A stretch of DNA of 64,000 nucleotides from IMG/VR virus record IMGVR_UViG_2513237120_000001, positions 2,467 through 66,466 of that record, one strand, 5' to 3'. This document shows, piece after piece, positions 52,829-63,523 of this stretch (its first letter is position 1; every line of letters begins with the position of its first letter). The notes beneath the pieces are model-generated. The model was not told the origin of the DNA, did no database searches, and saw nothing but the letters and a program-made list of their open reading frames with translations. Both the position numbers and the translations under genes were made by a program. This DNA comes from a virus. Its lineage: Duplodnaviria > Caudoviricetes.

Positions 52829-53119
52829 CTACGGCAGCGGGTCAGGCAGCGCCGACTCCATACCCGGAACGTCCTGGCATGCCCCGCACGGCACCAGCTC
52901 ATCTTCCTCGGTGTCAGGACCGATCCGCTCGGCGAGGCCGATCGGGTCGGTCCAGGAGAGGTACCCGGTGCTACCGCAGATGCGGCAGTTCTCGGACCCG
53001 GGGTAGGGGATCGGGATCTCGAAGCGGGCCTGAAGCTCGGCGGGGGGCGGCATGGGGGCGTTGTCGGTCATGCTGGTGTAACGATCGCAGCGCCCGCGCG
53101 GCACGGCCTCGTTCGTCAT
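52829..53119 (-). CDS. Small Zn-ribbon protein
   Basis: CRICGSTG...VPCGAC; ATGA coupling. Confidence 0.55.
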   Translation of the reverse strand: MTNEAVPRGRCDRYTSMTDNAPMPPPAELQARFEIPIPYPGSENCRICGSTGYLSWTDPIGLAERIGPDTEEDELVPCGACQDVPGMESALPDPLP

Positions 53120-53481
53120 GTCTCGGGGTAGATGATCCTGGCCCCGCACTCCTCGGCGGCCCGCCACGCGACCAGTTGATGCCACTCCGCCGACACCACC
53201 CGCTCCGGCCGGGACGCCCGATACGACTCGTCGGTCAGGTAGGTGACGATCGGGTTCTCCGGGCCGTGGACGGCGGCGAGGTCCGCTACCGTCTGGTCGG
53301 TGTAGGCGACGAGGTCGGCGAGCGCCTCAGCGTTCAGGCGGTAGATCGGCTCCCCCGCTTCCCATCTGGTGACCGTCCGCCGGGTGACCCCGATCGCCGC
53401 GGCGAGGCTGGTCACGGTGAGACCGAGGGATCGACGCAGGCAGAGCAGCCCAGCCCGGTTCATCTCCGACGGGTGCTGCAC
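53116..53481 (-). CDS. XRE-HTH protein, DUF1870/Aca2-YdiL-like (paralog 1)
   Basis: LRRSLGLTVTSLAAAIGVTRRTVTRWEAG...VTYLTDESY...SAEWHQLVAWR. Confidence 0.7.
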   Translation of the reverse strand: MQHPSEMNRAGLLCLRRSLGLTVTSLAAAIGVTRRTVTRWEAGEPIYRLNAEALADLVAYTDQTVADLAAVHGPENPIVTYLTDESYRASRPERVVSAEWHQLVAWRAAEECGARIIYPET

Positions 53482-59092: not shown

Positions 59093-59121
59093 ATAGTATG
59101 TCTCACTGTGAGACATCGCTA
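59093..59121 (-). promoter_or_regulatory. Putative promoter/operator of the transfer operon
   Basis: -10 TACTAT (59098-59093); palindrome ATGTCTCAC-T-GTGAGACAT (59098-59116) in the spacer; -35 weak. Confidence 0.55.
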
Positions 59122-59284
59122 GGGGTGGGGCTGCACGGGTTCTTCTCCGTCGGGTTCCGGACACGCGAAAGGCCCCGCCGGAGCGGGGCCTGTGGCTGGC
59201 CGGCCTGCGACAACCAGGAGACCAGCCGTGGTCAGCCTACGCGGCCGGACTATCCCCGGCGGGGAGGCGGGGCCGGGTGTCGGC

Positions 59285-59824
59285 TCAGGTAGCGGCGTAG
59301 TAGTCGCCGCAAGCAGCGATCGCGGCCATGATCGGGTCGTCCCGGTAGCCGCTGTAGCCCTGGATCAGGCCGACGAGCCGCTGACCGTCGTCGGTGTACC
59401 GGTAGGCGGCCAGCGGCCCGTCCGGGTCGGTGGCGGACCGGAGGTCGAGGAGCCCGATGGCGAGGTCGGCGACGCCCTCGGGGATGCTCCGGATCTGCCC
59501 GGCCGGAGTGATGAGGACCCGGTCTCCCCGGTAGCCCCAGCCGGTGATCGTGACCGGGGCGTCGTCGCGGCCTTCGGCCTCGGCGAGCGCGTCGTACAGG
59601 GCCTGGCCGGTCGGCATCCCGGACGCGTCGGTCTCGGTGAATTTGCGGCCGCGGAGCTCGTAGTACCCGTCGCCGGGGATGGTGGGGACGTACGGGCGCA
59701 GGGCGTCGGCGTTCCAGATGGCGGCTCGGTTGCCGATGATGGTGCGCCCGCCGTCGCGGGCGACGGTCACGAGCCGGTAGTTCGCGGGGAACATTTCGGC
59801 CCAGGCGGTGGTTTTGACGGTCAT
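59285..59824 (-). CDS. Orphan protein (third gene of the P2 operon)
   Basis: RBS GAAAGGACA; globular composition. Confidence 0.65.
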   Translation of the reverse strand: MTVKTTAWAEMFPANYRLVTVARDGGRTIIGNRAAIWNADALRPYVPTIPGDGYYELRGRKFTETDASGMPTGQALYDALAEAEGRDDAPVTITGWGYRGDRVLITPAGQIRSIPEGVADLAIGLLDLRSATDPDGPLAAYRYTDDGQRLVGLIQGYSGYRDDPIMAAIAACGDYYAAT

Positions 59825-59876
59825 GTCGGTGTCCTTTCTGGTGTGGTGCCCCCGGCCGGAGCCGGGGCCGGAGTGG

Positions 59877-60212
59877 CTAGCGGTTGTAGCAGGTGTCGCA
59901 GGTGTAGAACTCGAACACCGCGGCACTACCCTTGCGGAGCCCGGCGAAGAAGTCGTTCGCGTAGGAGACCAGCTGGGCGGCGGTGCGCGGCCAGTCGCCG
60001 TCCTGCACGATCTCGGGGAACGCGTCGATGAAGTGGTCGTCGAGGTAGCCGCGGGCGATGTTGCGGACGTCGCGCTCGTGCCGGCAGACAGCTCGGGTCG
60101 TGTGGCGGGCCTGGGCGGCGTCGACGCGGGGGCGGAGTTGGCAGGCGAGGTGGCGGCGGGCCCAGGCGAGGGCGGTGCGCTTGTCGGTGGGGGCCTTGGT
60201 CGTGGCTACCAT
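59877..60212 (-). CDS. Orphan protein (second gene of the P2 operon)
   Basis: RBS CAGGAG; ends CDTC. Confidence 0.65.
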   Translation of the reverse strand: MVATTKAPTDKRTALAWARRHLACQLRPRVDAAQARHTTRAVCRHERDVRNIARGYLDDHFIDAFPEIVQDGDWPRTAAQLVSYANDFFAGLRKGSAAVFEFYTCDTCYNR

Positions 60213-60307
60213 GGGGTTCTCCTGTTCTAGCGGATGGGAGTGGGCGGTCCGGGGATGCTGTGGAGGTGATCCGGGCCGCCCGTGGTGTTCTGGCCGGGGG
60301 TGGTGGG

Positions 60308-60628
60308 TCAGTAGCCGACGCAGGAGGCGACCAGGCCGAGCTGGGCGGTGTGCTTGTCCCACTCGGCGTCGGTCAGGTGGACCTCGGAGGGGTCGATGCC
60401 GGCGATCGCCATCGTGTCGCGGGCCTTGAGGCGCTGCACCAGGGCTTTCAGGCCGGGCTTGGCGTATTTCGCGGGGCGGTCTTCGAGCGCGAGCGAGTAG
60501 TCGATGAAGATGGTGAGGAATTCCTCGGTGCGGTCGGCCTTGGGGGCGAACGCTTCGGCGCAGCGCTGGGAGGCGGCCTGGTACGCCTGGTAGGCGGTGG
60601 AGGTGGTCTTCCAAGTCTGGTAGCTCAT
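60308..60628 (-). CDS. Orphan protein (first gene of the P2 operon)
   Basis: RBS AAAGGAC; MSYQTWKTTST... Confidence 0.65.
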   Translation of the reverse strand: MSYQTWKTTSTAYQAYQAASQRCAEAFAPKADRTEEFLTIFIDYSLALEDRPAKYAKPGLKALVQRLKARDTMAIAGIDPSEVHLTDAEWDKHTAQLGLVASCVGY

Positions 60629-60682
60629 GGGTCCGAGTCCTTTACGGAGTGGCCGGGGCTGGTCCCCTTGCCTCATACCCCA

Positions 60683-60711
60683 ATGTTACACCCTAAATTA
60701 GGGTGTAGCAA
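60683..60711 (-). promoter_or_regulatory. Promoter P2 with a palindromic operator
   Basis: TTGCTA-17 nt-TAACAT; TACACCCTA-AAT-TAGGGTGTA (60687-60707). Confidence 0.8.
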
Positions 60712-60743
60712 GTCGAAGGGGTCACCCGAACGGATGAATCTCC

Positions 60744-61586
60744 CTAACGGCCATGGCGCGCCGCCGCCACCGTCATCGCCTGGTCCAACACCGGGTGCTC
60801 GGACCGGTACTTCCGGAGCGTCTTGGAGGACACGCCGGCGCGCCTCGCCGCCGCGACTATGGACATACCACCCTCGATCATGGCCGCGATCTCATCGAAC
60901 AAGACCGCATCGAACCCACGCCGGCGATACCGGTCGGCCGCGCACTCCATGGCCGCGGCCAACTCAGGATGCCGCTCAGCCTTCCGATAGATCCCCGCCT
61001 CAGATATCCCGAGCCGCTCCCGAGCCTCCTGGATGGAAGCACCGCCCTCCAGCAGCTCGATGGCGCGGTCGACGAGCAGATCGGAGATGTGAGTGTACTG
61101 CCGCGCCTCAGCTTCGACGATGTCCCGCAGGTACAGGGACAGCAGACGCTTGGCCTCCTCCAGGCGCTCATCTTCATGGAAGAGATGCAGCAGCTCGCCC
61201 GGTGAGATGCCGGTGTCGGCGTGGGCGTCCTCCTCACTGCCCACCGAGCGGCACAACGCGGCGAAGAAGTCGCCGACGCGCGCTGCCCGCTGCACACTGA
61301 TCGGAGCGCCCTCCAGCGCACAATGCAGCTCGGAGTCGATCAGGGCGGCGGCCATGACCGCCTGTGTCGTCACGCCGACCTCGGCGACGGCCGCATCGAA
61401 TGACCAGCCGCCGTTGATGATCGCGATGACCGCATCGCGCTGCTCGCGGGTGAGCCGCTTGCCGCGCTCGGCGGCGCCTTTCTCGGCGTTCGATCGCCGG
61501 CACCGGTAGCACCGGCCCCCGGACTGGTAGCCCGAGAGCGTCCCGCACAGCTCGGGCTTGGCCGCACAGACCGGGCCCTCGCTCAC
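60744..61586 (-). CDS. Zn-finger plus triple-HTH protein
   Basis: CGTLSGYQSGGRCYRC; three units of the form I..G.S...A....GVS..T...Y...HP.L; GTGA coupling to the Aca2-like gene. Confidence 0.65.
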   Translation of the reverse strand: MSEGPVCAAKPELCGTLSGYQSGGRCYRCRRSNAEKGAAERGKRLTREQRDAVIAIINGGWSFDAAVAEVGVTTQAVMAAALIDSELHCALEGAPISVQRAARVGDFFAALCRSVGSEEDAHADTGISPGELLHLFHEDERLEEAKRLLSLYLRDIVEAEARQYTHISDLLVDRAIELLEGGASIQEARERLGISEAGIYRKAERHPELAAAMECAADRYRRRGFDAVLFDEIAAMIEGGMSIVAAARRAGVSSKTLRKYRSEHPVLDQAMTVAAARHGR

Positions 61587-62032
61587 TGGGCGCGCCGCCC
61601 CTCAACCACGACTAGGCCCGGCACCTCTTGGGCCACGCGCATGAGGACCCGCCGATGCCAGGAGGCCGGCCAGCGCACCACGGTCCCGTCGTCGTGCACC
61701 CTGGCGGTGGTCTCCTCTCCTGGACGGTCGGCGTGGTAGTCCTCGTCGCTGTAGTAGGTGGCGACGGCGGGCTCGGGGGCATCCATGAGCGCGTCGACGT
61801 TCATACCGACGATCTGCGCGGTGACCTCCTCGAGCCGTTCGATCTCGAGCCGGATACGATCGGGGATCTTCGAGCGGCCCTCTTCCCAGTCGCGGATCGT
61901 GCGCGGGTTCACGTTCAGGCAGCGGGCCAGCCAGGGCCCGGAGACCCCGAGCCATTCGCGGACGGCCTTGAATTCGAGCCCGATCATGCGCTCGTTCTCG
62001 GGCATGCCGGGCGGGTCGGTGTAGTCGGTCAT
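61583..62032 (-). CDS. XRE-HTH protein, DUF1870/Aca2-YdiL-like (paralog 2)
   Basis: EFKAVREWLGVSGPWLARCLNVNPRTIRDWEEGRSKIPDRI...TYYSDEDY...WPASWHRRVLMRV. Confidence 0.75.
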   Translation of the reverse strand: MTDYTDPPGMPENERMIGLEFKAVREWLGVSGPWLARCLNVNPRTIRDWEEGRSKIPDRIRLEIERLEEVTAQIVGMNVDALMDAPEPAVATYYSDEDYHADRPGEETTARVHDDGTVVRWPASWHRRVLMRVAQEVPGLVVVEGRRAQ

Positions 62033-62084
62033 GGTGTCTCCAAACGGAAGGCCCCCGGTTCCCCGGGGGCCTCGCTATGGTCGG

Positions 62085-62294
62085 TTAGGCCTCGTGGGCG
62101 GTGAAGACCTCCTGGACGACGGCCCAGAACTCGTCGGGGGTGACGTTGTCGCGGTCTTCGAGCTTGAGGACCAGGGCCTCGCGGACGGTCTCGGGGAGTT
62201 CGTTGTCGCCGATGGCGGCGGTGAGCTCGTCGCGGATCTCTTCGCGGTTGAGGGTGGTGAAGTCGGTGATCTGGTCGCCTTCAGTGTTGATCAT
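62085..62294 (-). CDS. 69-aa highly acidic orphan (first gene of the P1 operon)
   Basis: RBS AAAGGAC; 18 Asp/Glu versus 5 Lys/Arg by manual count. Confidence 0.7.
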   Translation of the reverse strand: MINTEGDQITDFTTLNREEIRDELTAAIGDNELPETVREALVLKLEDRDNVTPDEFWAVVQEVFTAHEA

Positions 62295-62352
62295 GATCGA
62301 GTCCTTTTTCGATCGGTGGTCCGGGGCTGTTCCCCTTGACCTGATGAACTCC

Positions 62353-62381
62353 ACTCTACACCCTAATTTAGGGTGTGACAA
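62353..62381 (-). promoter_or_regulatory. Promoter P1 with a palindromic operator
   Basis: TTGTCA-17 nt-TAGAGT; ACACCCTA-ATT-TAGGGTGT (62358-62376). Confidence 0.8.
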
Positions 62382-62449
62382 GTCGGGAAGGGTTCGAATT
62401 CAAATGTTCACCCGAACGAGTGACACCGCCCAGCTAGCAGCACCTAACC

Positions 62450-62695
62450 TCACCAGCGCTCGGCACCCTCGGCGTAGATGACCGCTACCGCGTCCCACGC
62501 CAGCCACTCCACCCCGTCTTCATCACCGATGACGCAGATGCCCCACTTCTCGACGGCGGCGACCTCCGGCGGCGCGAACCCCTGCGACCGGATGTAGTCG
62601 GTGAACGCATCCCCGGTGTCGGTGGCCGTGTCGTACTCACCGATCAGCGCGTCGTTGCGTTCCCGGTCGCCGGTGACTCTCACCTGCTTAACCAT
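62450..62695 (-). CDS. Small acidic protein, putative immunity protein
   Basis: Start overlaps the toxin stop by 8 nt. Confidence 0.6.
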   Translation of the reverse strand: MVKQVRVTGDRERNDALIGEYDTATDTGDAFTDYIRSQGFAPPEVAAVEKWGICVIGDEDGVEWLAWDAVAVIYAEGAERW

Positions 62696-63428
62696 CAGTC
62701 AGTGCCTCCCCGGTGCCTGTGATGCGCCTGCGGTATCGGATCCGGTTCTCGCTGTCGTAGACCTTGATGTCCAGGACCGATCCCGGTTTGAGATAGTGCG
62801 CGGTGTTGTCCTTGCATCCCTGCCCCTTATAGTCGCACGGTTGGACGTTGAGGAACAGGCTCGCCTTGGTTTCCCCGGTGTGGAGCATGTCGGCGGCGGC
62901 GTTGCCCTCGATGTGTCCTTGAGCGGGTTTGGTGTGCCGCCATTCGGGTTTGACCTCGCCGGGCTTGAACTTCGTCTCCCCTGGTGTCGCCTTCAACGGC
63001 CGGTCGTTCTGCCGCCCCGTGGCGAAGAACAGGTTGCCCTCGGCGGTGCCGGCCTCCTCGTAGGGGCGGATGCCGGCCATGCCTTCGCGTGGGGGGATCG
63101 TCGAGGGGTCGCGTCGTAGTGGCTCGGCCGCTGGCGTCACCGGAGGCGGCCCCGGTGGAGCGCCGCCACCTCCACCACCCCGGAGTGCCTCGGCTTGCGC
63201 GAGCACGGTCTCGGCGTGGCCGATTGCCGTTTGGGCTGCCGCCTGCTGCTCCTCGATGGCGTCCACGATCGCGGCCGTGTCGCGGGCCTTCCCCTCGGCG
63301 CCGAGGCTCGTGAACCGGTCGCGGACCTCTCCGGCGGTGGTACGCGAGGCGGTGATACTGACTGCGGCTGCGCGGATCTGTTCGAGGGCGTCGCGGATCG
63401 CGGCGGTGAGGGTGTCGATTGAGGGCAC
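62688..63428 (-). CDS. Polymorphic toxin: helical N-terminal domain + Pro/Gly linker + SCP1.201/DddA-like cytidine deaminase
   Basis: GHIEGNAAADM...LFLNVQPCDYKGQGC...YLKPGSVLDI (HxE...PC..C); RBS GGAGGGAG before GTG 63428. Confidence 0.75.
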   Translation of the reverse strand: MPSIDTLTAAIRDALEQIRAAAVSITASRTTAGEVRDRFTSLGAEGKARDTAAIVDAIEEQQAAAQTAIGHAETVLAQAEALRGGGGGGAPPGPPPVTPAAEPLRRDPSTIPPREGMAGIRPYEEAGTAEGNLFFATGRQNDRPLKATPGETKFKPGEVKPEWRHTKPAQGHIEGNAAADMLHTGETKASLFLNVQPCDYKGQGCKDNTAHYLKPGSVLDIKVYDSENRIRYRRRITGTGEALTDG

Positions 63429-63523
63429 GGGGCTCCCTCCGTCAGGGGACGAGGGGGACGCTAAACGCCGTGGGGGTTGGTTGGTAGGGGTCTGTCGGAT
63501 GCCCGACAGTGCCTGCGCCCTGT

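What the first reader, a model, noticed from the sequence alone, without database searches (positions are those of the whole stretch)
60620..62390. Twin promoters sharing an operator and a covarying double-hairpin leader: Aca2-like DNA plus RNA control of a putative anti-defence regulon
Seen: P1 (TTGTCA-17-TAGAGT) and P2 (TTGCTA-17-TAACAT) both have ACACCCTA-N3-TAGGGTGT filling the spacer. Their leaders share CAAGGGG-A(A/C)CAG-CCCCGG (hairpin 1) and a second hairpin holding the RBS AAAGGAC in its loop with different but paired stems (GATCGA/TCGATC versus TCCG/CGGA). P1 drives an acidic orphan, a DUF1870/Aca2-like HTH and a triple-HTH protein. Knowledge: Aca2 of Pectobacterium phage ZF40 represses acr transcription at inverted repeats and also binds 5' UTR stem-loops to block translation. 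Inference: an actinobacterial multi-operon version that gives a burst of anti-defence proteins on entry by infection or conjugation, then shuts it off.
Basis: partly seen in the sequence, partly recalled or inferred. Interest (0 to 1): 0.85.

Follow-up and report, generated by a model that had tools for sequence, protein, structure and literature searches.

The report
Aca2-type repressor switch in prophage
Two neighbouring operons at the right end of an actinomycete prophage share a promoter, operator and folded mRNA leader governed by an Aca2-family repressor; this switch is real and strongly conserved, but its kind is already published and what the controlled genes do is still unknown.

Summary
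On the minus strand, P1 (62353-62381) and P2 (60683-60711) each carry the perfect 19-bp palindrome ACACCCTA-N3-TAGGGTGT between -35 and -10. These are the only two copies in the 5.7-Mb genome. Each is followed by the same two-hairpin leader.

The 149-aa P1 product is a true Aca2-family protein: Pfam PF08965 above cut-off, profile E 2e-14 to solved Aca2 structures, and full-length fold match.

About 70 distinct related promoters from actinobacterial phages, plasmids and metagenomes have the same layout. Both hairpins show compensatory changes. The operator half-site changes together with two recognition-helix residues, at least twice on the tree.

The kind is published. Feussner et al. (NAR 2026) cite an 'actino-motif' RNA upstream of aca2 operons (Birkholz et al., Nature 2024), binding of two 5'-UTR hairpins by the Aca2 dimer, and multi-operon control. 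I could not read the 2024 motif itself, so identity with it is inferred.

This scan reached the same class on two other genomes.

The anti-defence role of the cargo is untested: all five small genes match no family, and the host has no Cas1.

Verdict: new member of a known kind, modest interest.

The parts
62353..62381 (-). Promoter P1. TTGTCA (62376-62381), 17-nt spacer, TAGAGT (62353-62358). The 19-bp operator ACACCCTAAATTAGGGTGT (62358-62376) overlaps the last base of the -35 and the first base of the -10.
62318..62341 (-). P1 leader hairpin 1: GGUC-AA-GGGG-AACAG-CCCC-G-GACC.
   Evidence: Minimum-energy fold. Covariance models R1 and R2. Family covariation.
62295..62314 (-). P1 leader hairpin 2: GAUCGA / loop AAAAGGAC holding the ribosome site / UCGAUC. 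It abuts the ATG at 62292-62294.
62085..62294 (-). First P1 gene: 69-aa strongly acidic protein with no family hit. Its C-terminal DEFWAVV..H motif resembles that of small acidic first-gene proteins in related operons. The similarity is weak.
62050..62071 (-). GC-rich perfect intercistronic hairpin (9-bp stem, no U tract) between the acidic gene and the regulator gene. A like hairpin is seen at the same place in most of the 13 relatives whose folds were inspected.
   Evidence: not a canonical terminator.
61583..62032 (-). Aca2-family HTH regulator, 149 aa. Recognition region is V41-N-P-R-T-I-R-D-W-E50.
   Evidence: Pfam PF08965, 26.4 bits against a 23.8 cut-off. Profile E 2.2e-14 to Aca2 8w35 and 7vjo. 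Model pLDDT 92; Foldseek top hits are Aca2 7ezy, 7vjp and 7vjq with TM 0.77-0.82 over the target.
60744..61586 (-). 280-aa multi-HTH protein, overlapping the regulator's stop by 4 nt. A homologue lies directly downstream of the Aca2-like gene in 6 related loci.
60683..60711 (-). Promoter P2. TTGCTA (60706-60711), 17-nt spacer, TAACAT (60683-60688), with operator ACACCCTAATTTAGGGTGT (60688-60706).
60651..60672 (-). P2 leader hairpin 1: GGC-AA-GGGG-ACCAG-CCCC-G-GCC.
60632..60648 (-). P2 leader hairpin 2: UCCG / loop UAAAGGACU / CGGA, 3 nt before the ATG at 60626-60628. It is thermodynamically weak.
59285..60628 (-). P2 operon of three genes without known family: 106 aa (60308-60628), 111 aa (59877-60212), 179 aa (59285-59824).
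   Evidence: The N-terminal 32 aa of gene 1 are shared with the gene under the P2-like promoter of L042.
59171..59190 (-). Hairpin GGCCCCGC-UCCG-GCGGGGCC followed by UUUCG. Likely end of the P2 operon.
   Evidence: read from the sequence; inference.
62408..62418 (-). Box CGTTCGGGTGA upstream of P1. A second exact copy lies upstream of P2 at 60722-60732. Function unknown.
60722..60732 (-). Second copy of the box CGTTCGGGTGA, upstream of P2.

Best explanation
This is an Aca2-type autoregulated switch of a temperate actinophage, used twice.

Proposed mechanism:
- The 149-aa Aca2-family dimer binds the 19-bp palindrome that fills the -35/-10 spacer of P1 (its own operon) and P2 (a three-gene operon). 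Binding shuts off transcription of both.
- The mRNAs begin a few bases before a conserved two-hairpin leader. Hairpin 2 holds the ribosome site and abuts the start codon.
- By analogy with ZF40 Aca2, the same protein probably also binds these hairpins and blocks translation of the first gene.
- When the DNA enters a cell without the repressor, both operons fire, the repressor builds up, and expression is clamped. In the lysogen both stay low.

Status of each step:
- Shown here: the sequence features, family membership, conservation and covariation of the RNA, and co-variation of operator with recognition helix.
- Inferred: actual DNA and RNA binding, and the timing.
- Unknown: what the five small cargo proteins do. 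Anti-defence is one reasonable guess, no more.
For: Site statistics:
- Only two operators in the window and in the genome.

Regulator identity:
- Pfam PF08965 above cut-off.
- A profile of 37 homologues hits solved Aca2 at E 2e-14 and YdiL only at 2e-4.
- The predicted fold matches Aca2 over its full length.
- The Arg aligned with the Arg of Aca2's recognition region (R44 here) is invariant in the 37-protein alignment.

Operator-regulator linkage:
- In Streptomyces palmae and in plasmid NZ_CP108117.1 the identical operator occurs once per genome, directly upstream of the operon that encodes the Aca2-like domain.
- Across about 70 distinct promoters, TTCC-type operators go with V[S/T]xRTVRHWE and CCC-type operators with [V/I]NPRTxR[S/D/E/A]WE.
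- This needs at least 2 switches on the protein tree. One CCC pair is nested inside the TTCC clade.

Leader RNA:
- 94.2% and 93.8% of cells are paired in two alignment sets.
- 7 of 12 pairs carry compensatory changes in each set, and 0 of 500 shuffles reach this.
- G-U pairs are present, which fits RNA on the transcribed strand.
- A model built without any window sequence scores P1 at 48.8 bits and P2 at 44.8 bits; the next best hit in the window is 14.4.

Literature (PMC13551039):
- The Aca2 dimer binds two 5'-UTR hairpins and blocks the ribosome site.
- The DNA motif overlaps the promoter, the transcription start lies 10-15 nt downstream of it, and the RNA motif starts right after.
- An 'actino-motif' exists.
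- Multi-operon control by Aca2 is predicted.
- A DEAD/DEAH helicase with HA domains is often downstream of aca2. I see this in L045.
Against: - No binding or expression data exist for this protein.
- P2's hairpin 2 is not in the minimum-energy fold.
- In the Streptomyces plasmid relative the hairpins lie about 60 nt upstream of the annotated start, so there they cannot occlude the ribosome site.
- The leader stays almost invariant while the DNA specificity switches. It is therefore not read through the residues that set DNA specificity, and could be read by something other than this protein.
- The cargo has no recognisable anti-defence family.
- Only 3% of DUF1870 homologues sit next to known acr genes (PMC9410906).
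- I could not read the 2024 paper, so equating my consensus with the published actino-motif is an inference.
Confidence: 0.72

Rival explanations
1. The DNA-level autorepression is real, but the leader hairpins act without the Aca2-like protein. They would be a 5' stabiliser or a fixed translation-tuning element, or they are read by a host factor. On this reading there is no dual DNA/RNA control here.
For: The leader, loops included, is nearly invariant across proteins with different DNA specificity. In plasmid NZ_CP108117.1 the hairpins are far from the start codon. The 2026 paper reports that predicted RNA motifs of Aca10 and Aca12 were not bound in EMSA, and that Aca1 binding gave no translational silencing.
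Against: RNA binding and translational repression are reported for ZF40 Aca2, and the same group reports an actinobacterial motif upstream of aca2 operons. The ribosome site sits in hairpin 2 in most of the 70 sequences. Leader-like copies also occur between genes inside operons without any promoter (L054, L065, L047, L187, L120), as the paper describes for Aca2 motifs.
Confidence: 0.2
2. The module is a phage or element housekeeping regulator for establishment, replication or packaging control, and its cargo has nothing to do with host defence.
For: - The cargo matches no family.
- The host has no Cas1.
- A second paralogue of the regulator ends the FtsK/SpoIIIE-type transfer operon, whose promoter carries its own palindrome, so this protein family does general regulation in the element.
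- The 280-aa partner gives small-terminase and DNA-binding PHROG hits.
Against: First genes in related operons are typically small, acidic, fast-diverging and interchangeable. That is the pattern of counter-defence cargo. The block lies in the accessory arm between the lysis genes and the prophage end, next to a deaminase toxin pair.
Confidence: 0.3
3. The acidic gene plus the HTH gene form a toxin-antitoxin pair of the HigA/MqsA type.
For: There are weak hits to HigA-2 (E 2e-5) and to the MqsA-type family. The order small gene then HTH gene resembles HigBA.
Against: The match to Aca2 is nine orders of magnitude better than to HigA-2 and covers the whole protein. The 69-aa product is strongly acidic and has no toxin family hit. 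The first gene is replaced by unrelated small proteins in relatives.
Confidence: 0.03

Closest known systems
Aca2 of Pectobacterium phage ZF40 (acrIF8-aca2 operon; PDB 7b5j, 7vjo-7vjq, 8w35)
   Same: - Same protein family and fold.
- An inverted repeat overlaps its own promoter.
- A two-hairpin 5' UTR starts just after the transcription start and involves the ribosome site.
- The regulator is encoded downstream of a small first gene.
   Different: - 22-24% identity.
- Actinobacterial host with 68% G+C.
- The operator fills the -35/-10 spacer as one perfect 19-bp palindrome.
- The first gene is not a known anti-CRISPR.
- A GC hairpin separates the first gene from the regulator.
- A third, multi-HTH gene is coupled to the regulator.
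The Aca2 'actino-motif' operons (Birkholz et al., Nature 2024, as cited in Feussner et al., NAR 2026, PMC13551039)
   Same: - Actinobacterial Aca2 homologues with a DNA motif in the promoter and a structured RNA motif right after the start.
- The same accessory DEAD/DEAH helicase with HA domains in relatives (L045).
- RNA motifs also occur between genes.
- One regulator is predicted to control neighbouring operons.
   Different: I could not see the published motif, so identity is inferred. The window carries a minority operator class: ACACCCTA half-site, 10 of 70 promoters, against the common CTTCCTA. It also has variant hairpins: an AA/G internal loop, and hairpin 2 stems GAUCGA or UCCG instead of CCGG.
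YdiL of Salmonella and SO3848 (DUF1870 proteins of unknown role)
   Same: Same Pfam family and overall fold.
   Different: Much weaker sequence match (E 2e-4 against 2e-14 for Aca2). No known operator or leader arrangement.

Membership tests
Aca2 / Pfam PF08965 (Aca2_YdiL, DUF1870) | Sequence match to the family model above the curated cut-off | tested here: met
   26.4 bits against a cut-off of 23.8, residues 18-99. The profile of homologues hits Aca2 chains at E 2.2e-14 to 1e-10.
Aca2 / Pfam PF08965 (Aca2_YdiL, DUF1870) | N-terminal HTH plus C-terminal dimerisation domain with the Aca2 fold | tested here: met
   AlphaFold2 model with pLDDT 92.1. The top Foldseek hits are Aca2 7ezy, 7vjp and 7vjq: TM 0.77-0.82 normalised to the target, 129-136 aligned columns.
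Aca2 / Pfam PF08965 (Aca2_YdiL, DUF1870) | Conserved Arg in the recognition region. That this residue (R30) is needed for DNA binding in ZF40 Aca2 is from my own knowledge of Birkholz et al. 2019. | tested here: met
   R44 is invariant in the 37-protein alignment and aligns with the Arg of Aca2 'vsaRSwqyWEsGRS'.
Aca2-controlled operon (DNA level) | Inverted repeat overlapping the promoter of the operon that encodes the regulator | tested here: met
   The operator lies in the P1 spacer. The same operator lies upstream of the Aca2-like gene in two Streptomyces relatives. Operator and recognition helix co-vary. Physical binding was not tested.
Aca2-controlled operon (RNA level; 'actino-motif') | [quoted passage not shown] | tested here: met
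   Covariation in two sets. An independent model scores P1 at 48.8 bits and P2 at 44.8 bits. Fold of the P1 leader. The transcription start is predicted only.
Aca2-controlled operon (RNA level; 'actino-motif') | The regulator binds the hairpins and represses translation | not testable with these tools
   Needs EMSA or cell-free translation. No RNA sequencing run was listed for this DNA.
Aca2-controlled operon (RNA level; 'actino-motif') | Match to the published actino-motif model itself | not tested
   The 2024 paper and its models are not held. Rfam 15 has no such family.
acr-aca (anti-CRISPR) locus | An upstream gene that is a known or demonstrated anti-CRISPR | tested here: inconclusive
   The cargo proteins hit no Pfam, PHROG or NCBIfam family, but no anti-CRISPR library was on hand. 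The host genome (100% complete) has no Cas1.
Type II toxin-antitoxin (HigA/MqsA-type antitoxin) | A cognate toxin gene next to the HTH gene | tested here: not met
   The neighbouring 69-aa product is acidic and has no toxin family hit. The HigA-2 match is far weaker than the Aca2 match.

The most novel reading that the evidence does not exclude
The DNA operators of this family have split into specificity classes, each with matching recognition-helix residues, while the leader RNA has stayed almost identical across all of them. A resident element's Aca2-like protein might therefore silence translation of the first genes of any incoming relative, whatever that relative's operator. That would be RNA-level cross-immunity between actinobacterial phages and plasmids. 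On this view the operators diverge to escape transcriptional cross-repression, and the shared leader is the common handle. A CRISPR spacer against this operator in Streptomyces alkaliphilus would then target the element's least mutable non-coding site.
Probability: 0.12. Interest if true: 0.6.

Novelty: new member of a known kind. Interest (0 to 1): 0.3.

Why it matters
It adds a clean natural example of the Aca2 switch used at two promoters in an actinomycete prophage. It also yields a data set of about 70 promoters in which two recognition-helix positions (N42 and D48 here, against S/T and H) track the operator half-site (CACCC against CTTCC). That gives a directly testable specificity code for this repressor family, and a handle for listing the genes these elements express first on entry. 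It does not open a new mechanism. The cargo genes are candidates for function screens, nothing more.

Tried and rejected
- DNA BLAST of the region against the phage and plasmid collections gave only short HTH-gene matches plus the P2 leader in plasmid NZ_CP108117.1.
- A pattern search in 400 genomes of the host's family found one 1-mismatch palindrome (L003). It has no promoter or leader, so I take it as chance.
- Of 31 exact operator hits among representative genomes, 28 lie in low-G+C taxa. I treated these as chance on taxonomy alone; they also have no leader motif.
- Viral contigs held no exact operator.
- Rfam has no family for the leader.
- The Nature 2024 paper could not be fetched by DOI or PubMed id. 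Further literature searches on Aca2 with Streptomyces, and on DUF1870 with actinophage, gave nothing relevant.
- No RNA holder was listed for this DNA, so no read mapping was done.
- A profile of small acidic first-gene proteins scores the window's 69-aa protein at only 14 bits. It ranks second among 2001 sequences with one shuffle above it, so kinship is only suggestive.
- tblastn of the cargo proteins against 148 related loci found no homologues at E 1e-4.
- The protein atlas search for the 179-aa P2 protein returned only unnamed phage clusters.
- I considered the operator as a site for the 280-aa multi-HTH protein instead. I set this aside because the operator tracks the Aca2-like recognition helix, and because the operator is present in relatives where no homologue of that protein was found in the fetched loci.
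- The careful tree did not finish; the quick tree was used.
Full report
**What is there**

All features read on the minus strand. P1 is TTGTCA (62376-62381), a 17-nt spacer and TAGAGT (62353-62358). P2 is TTGCTA (60706-60711), a 17-nt spacer and TAACAT (60683-60688). Each spacer is filled by the perfect palindrome ACACCCTA-N3-TAGGGTGT (62358-62376 and 60688-60706).

Allowing 3 mismatches, the window holds only these two sites, against 0.05 expected and 0 of 100 shuffles with two. The whole 5.7-Mb genome holds no other site at 2 mismatches or fewer.

An alignment of the two regions shows three shared blocks:
- an 11-nt box CGTTCGGGTGA upstream, with exact copies only at these two places;
- the -35, operator and -10 block;
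- the leader.

**Anatomy of the leader**

It has a lower stem (P1 GGUC/GACC, P2 GGC/GCC), an AA/G internal loop, the upper stem GGGG/CCCC and a 5-nt loop.

Hairpin 2 is GAUCGA/UCGAUC in P1, abutting the ATG. In P2 it is UCCG/CGGA. Both have AAAGGAC in the loop.

The P1 leader folds exactly so (-21 kcal/mol, z -3.7). For P2, hairpin 1 is in the minimum-energy fold but hairpin 2 is not.

**Genes and context**

- P1 drives a 69-aa acidic protein. Next comes a GC-rich hairpin (62050-62071; -30.4 kcal/mol for the intergenic stretch; no U tract). Then come the 149-aa HTH protein and, overlapping its stop by 4 nt, a 280-aa multi-HTH protein.
- P2 drives three genes of 106, 111 and 179 aa, and ends at a hairpin near 59171-59190.
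- The window is a tailed prophage. It has an integrase at the left edge, then primase, large terminase, portal, head, tape measure and endolysin genes on the plus strand.
- A minus-strand accessory arm follows: an FtsK/SpoIIIE-type transfer operon, P2, P1 and a DddA-like deaminase with a small partner.
- Host phosphate-transport genes start about 4.7 kb beyond the window.

**The regulator is an Aca2-family protein**

- Pfam PF08965 scores above its cut-off.
- A profile of 37 actinobacterial homologues hits solved Aca2 structures at E 2.2e-14 to 1e-10, covering nearly the whole chain. YdiL scores only 2e-4 and HigA-2 2e-5.
- The AlphaFold2 model (pLDDT 92) finds Aca2 entries first, with TM 0.77-0.82 over the full Aca2 length.

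**Relatives show the same switch**

The exact operator occurs in three actinobacterial records among one genome per species.

- In Streptomyces palmae and in a Streptomyces plasmid it sits once per genome. In both it lies in the same promoter geometry with a like leader, directly upstream of the operon that encodes an Aca2-like domain of 45-46% identity.
- The third record is a CRISPR array with a spacer that matches the operator (see 'Noticed in passing').

Searching with the protein alignment gave 63 viral and 80 metagenome loci. Seventy distinct upstream regions share one plan: TTGCGC, then a palindrome (mostly GCTTCCTA-N3-TAGGAAGC), then TAnnnT, then about 11 nt, then hairpin 1 (GGUCAGGGG-loop-CCCCAGACC), then 3-5 nt, then hairpin 2 (CCGG-AAGGAM-CCGG), then 2-4 nt, then AUG.

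**RNA structure test**

I built a covariance model from 30 of these sequences. It finds only P1 and P2 in the window and in the genome.

Alignments of its hits in two separate collections gave:
- 94.2% and 93.8% of cells paired;
- 7 of 12 pairs with compensatory changes in each set;
- 0 of 500 shuffles as high on any measure;
- a sharp drop when partners are slid by one column;
- G-U pairs present.

These alignments are fitted to the model, which favours the structure. A second model, built only from the metagenome set with no window rows, still scores P1 at 48.8 bits and P2 at 44.8 bits, against 14.4 for the next window hit.

**The protein reads the operator**

Across the loci, TTCC-type operators pair with V[S/T]xRTVRHWE. 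CCC-type operators, which include the window, pair with [V/I]NPRTxR[S/D/E/A]WE.

On a quick tree the class needs at least two changes. One CCC pair (L059, L115) is nested deep in the TTCC clade, even though the helix columns were left in the alignment and should have pulled it away.

This is comparative evidence for binding, not a binding assay.

The leader RNA does not change with operator class.

**Comparison with what is known**

Feussner et al. (NAR 2026, PMC13551039) state the following:
- Aca2 represses its promoter through an inverted repeat, and its dimer binds two conserved 5'-UTR hairpins, blocking the ribosome site.
- Two RNA motifs, 'proteo' and 'actino', were described in Birkholz et al. 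(Nature 2024).
- The DNA motif overlaps the promoter, with the start 10-15 nt downstream and the RNA motif right after.
- One Aca2 can be predicted to control several neighbouring operons.
- RNA motifs also occur between genes.
- A DEAD/DEAH helicase with HA domains often follows aca2.

My related loci show the same helicase (L045) and the same internal leader copies.

I could not open the 2024 paper. That my consensus is the published actino-motif is therefore a strong inference, not a check.

Two earlier reports of this scan on other genomes reached the same class.

**What remains open**

The cargo is uncharacterised.
- None of the five small proteins hits Pfam, PHROGs or NCBIfam.
- They have no homologues in the 148 related loci at E 1e-4. 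The exception is the first 32 residues of P2 gene 1.
- The acidic protein shares only a short C-terminal motif with the small acidic first-gene proteins common in relatives.
- The host has no Cas1, so a role against CRISPR in this host is unlikely. Other counter-defence or establishment roles stay possible.

The second family member in the genome is 28% identical and ends the transfer operon. That operon's promoter carries a different palindrome. This protein family therefore acts as a general regulator in this element.

**Verdict**

The regulatory reading is well supported by comparison. The anti-defence reading is untested. The kind is already published. This is a new member with a minority operator class and variant hairpins.

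Noticed in passing
L013:3923-3954 (Streptomyces alkaliphilus DSM 42118, NZ_VKHT01000045.1): A 46-repeat CRISPR array holds a 32-nt spacer, ACAACTTGAGCACACCCTAATTTAGGGTGTAG. It reads as a -35 box plus this exact operator plus the start of a -10. Some related mobile element with the same operator class has therefore been targeted at its promoter. No locus in hand matches the other 11 nt.
   Followed up: partly
window 53116-53481 (-) and 59098-59116: A second Aca2-family paralogue (121 aa, 28% identical over its full length, profile E 1.2e-19) ends the FtsK/SpoIIIE-DUF2637 transfer operon. That operon's promoter region carries its own perfect palindrome, ATGTCTCAC-N-GTGAGACAT, next to TACTAT. No R1-type leader follows it.
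   Followed up: partly
window 62450-63434 (-); L042:2371-3326: A DddA/SCP1.201-like deaminase (Pfam E 3.5e-18) with an overlapping 81-aa gene lies just upstream of P1. The pair is syntenic in the closest relative (58% and 56% identity).
   Followed up: partly
window 62408-62418 and 60722-60732 (-): An exact 11-nt box, CGTTCGGGTGA, lies upstream of both promoters and nowhere else in the window. It sits 26 and 10 nt from the -35 and is unexplained.
   Followed up: partly
G000:C7 about 67012-68241 (window-equivalent 64010-65239, just past the window end); L043:622-1761: A 409-aa protein lies beside the block; its sequence suggests an N-terminal XRE-type HTH and a repeat-rich C-terminal part, but it was not scanned against any family library. 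A 379-aa protein with precomputed HTH_3 and faint TPR hits lies near the Aca2-like operon of a relative. It may be the main repressor or a signal-sensing regulator.
   Followed up: no
L035, L036, L078, L079: In several Streptomyces-type relatives the Aca2-like domain is the C-terminal part of a protein of about 330-420 aa. Its N-terminal domain of about 200 aa is conserved and unnamed (it begins VRIIECT..ELYR.YD).
   Followed up: no
IMG/VR loci L048, L052-L057, L060, L062, L064: In many viral contigs of 82-93 kb the Aca2-like operon lies within about 2-15 kb of one contig end. This suggests a fixed place near a genome end in a family of large actinobacterial elements.
   Followed up: no
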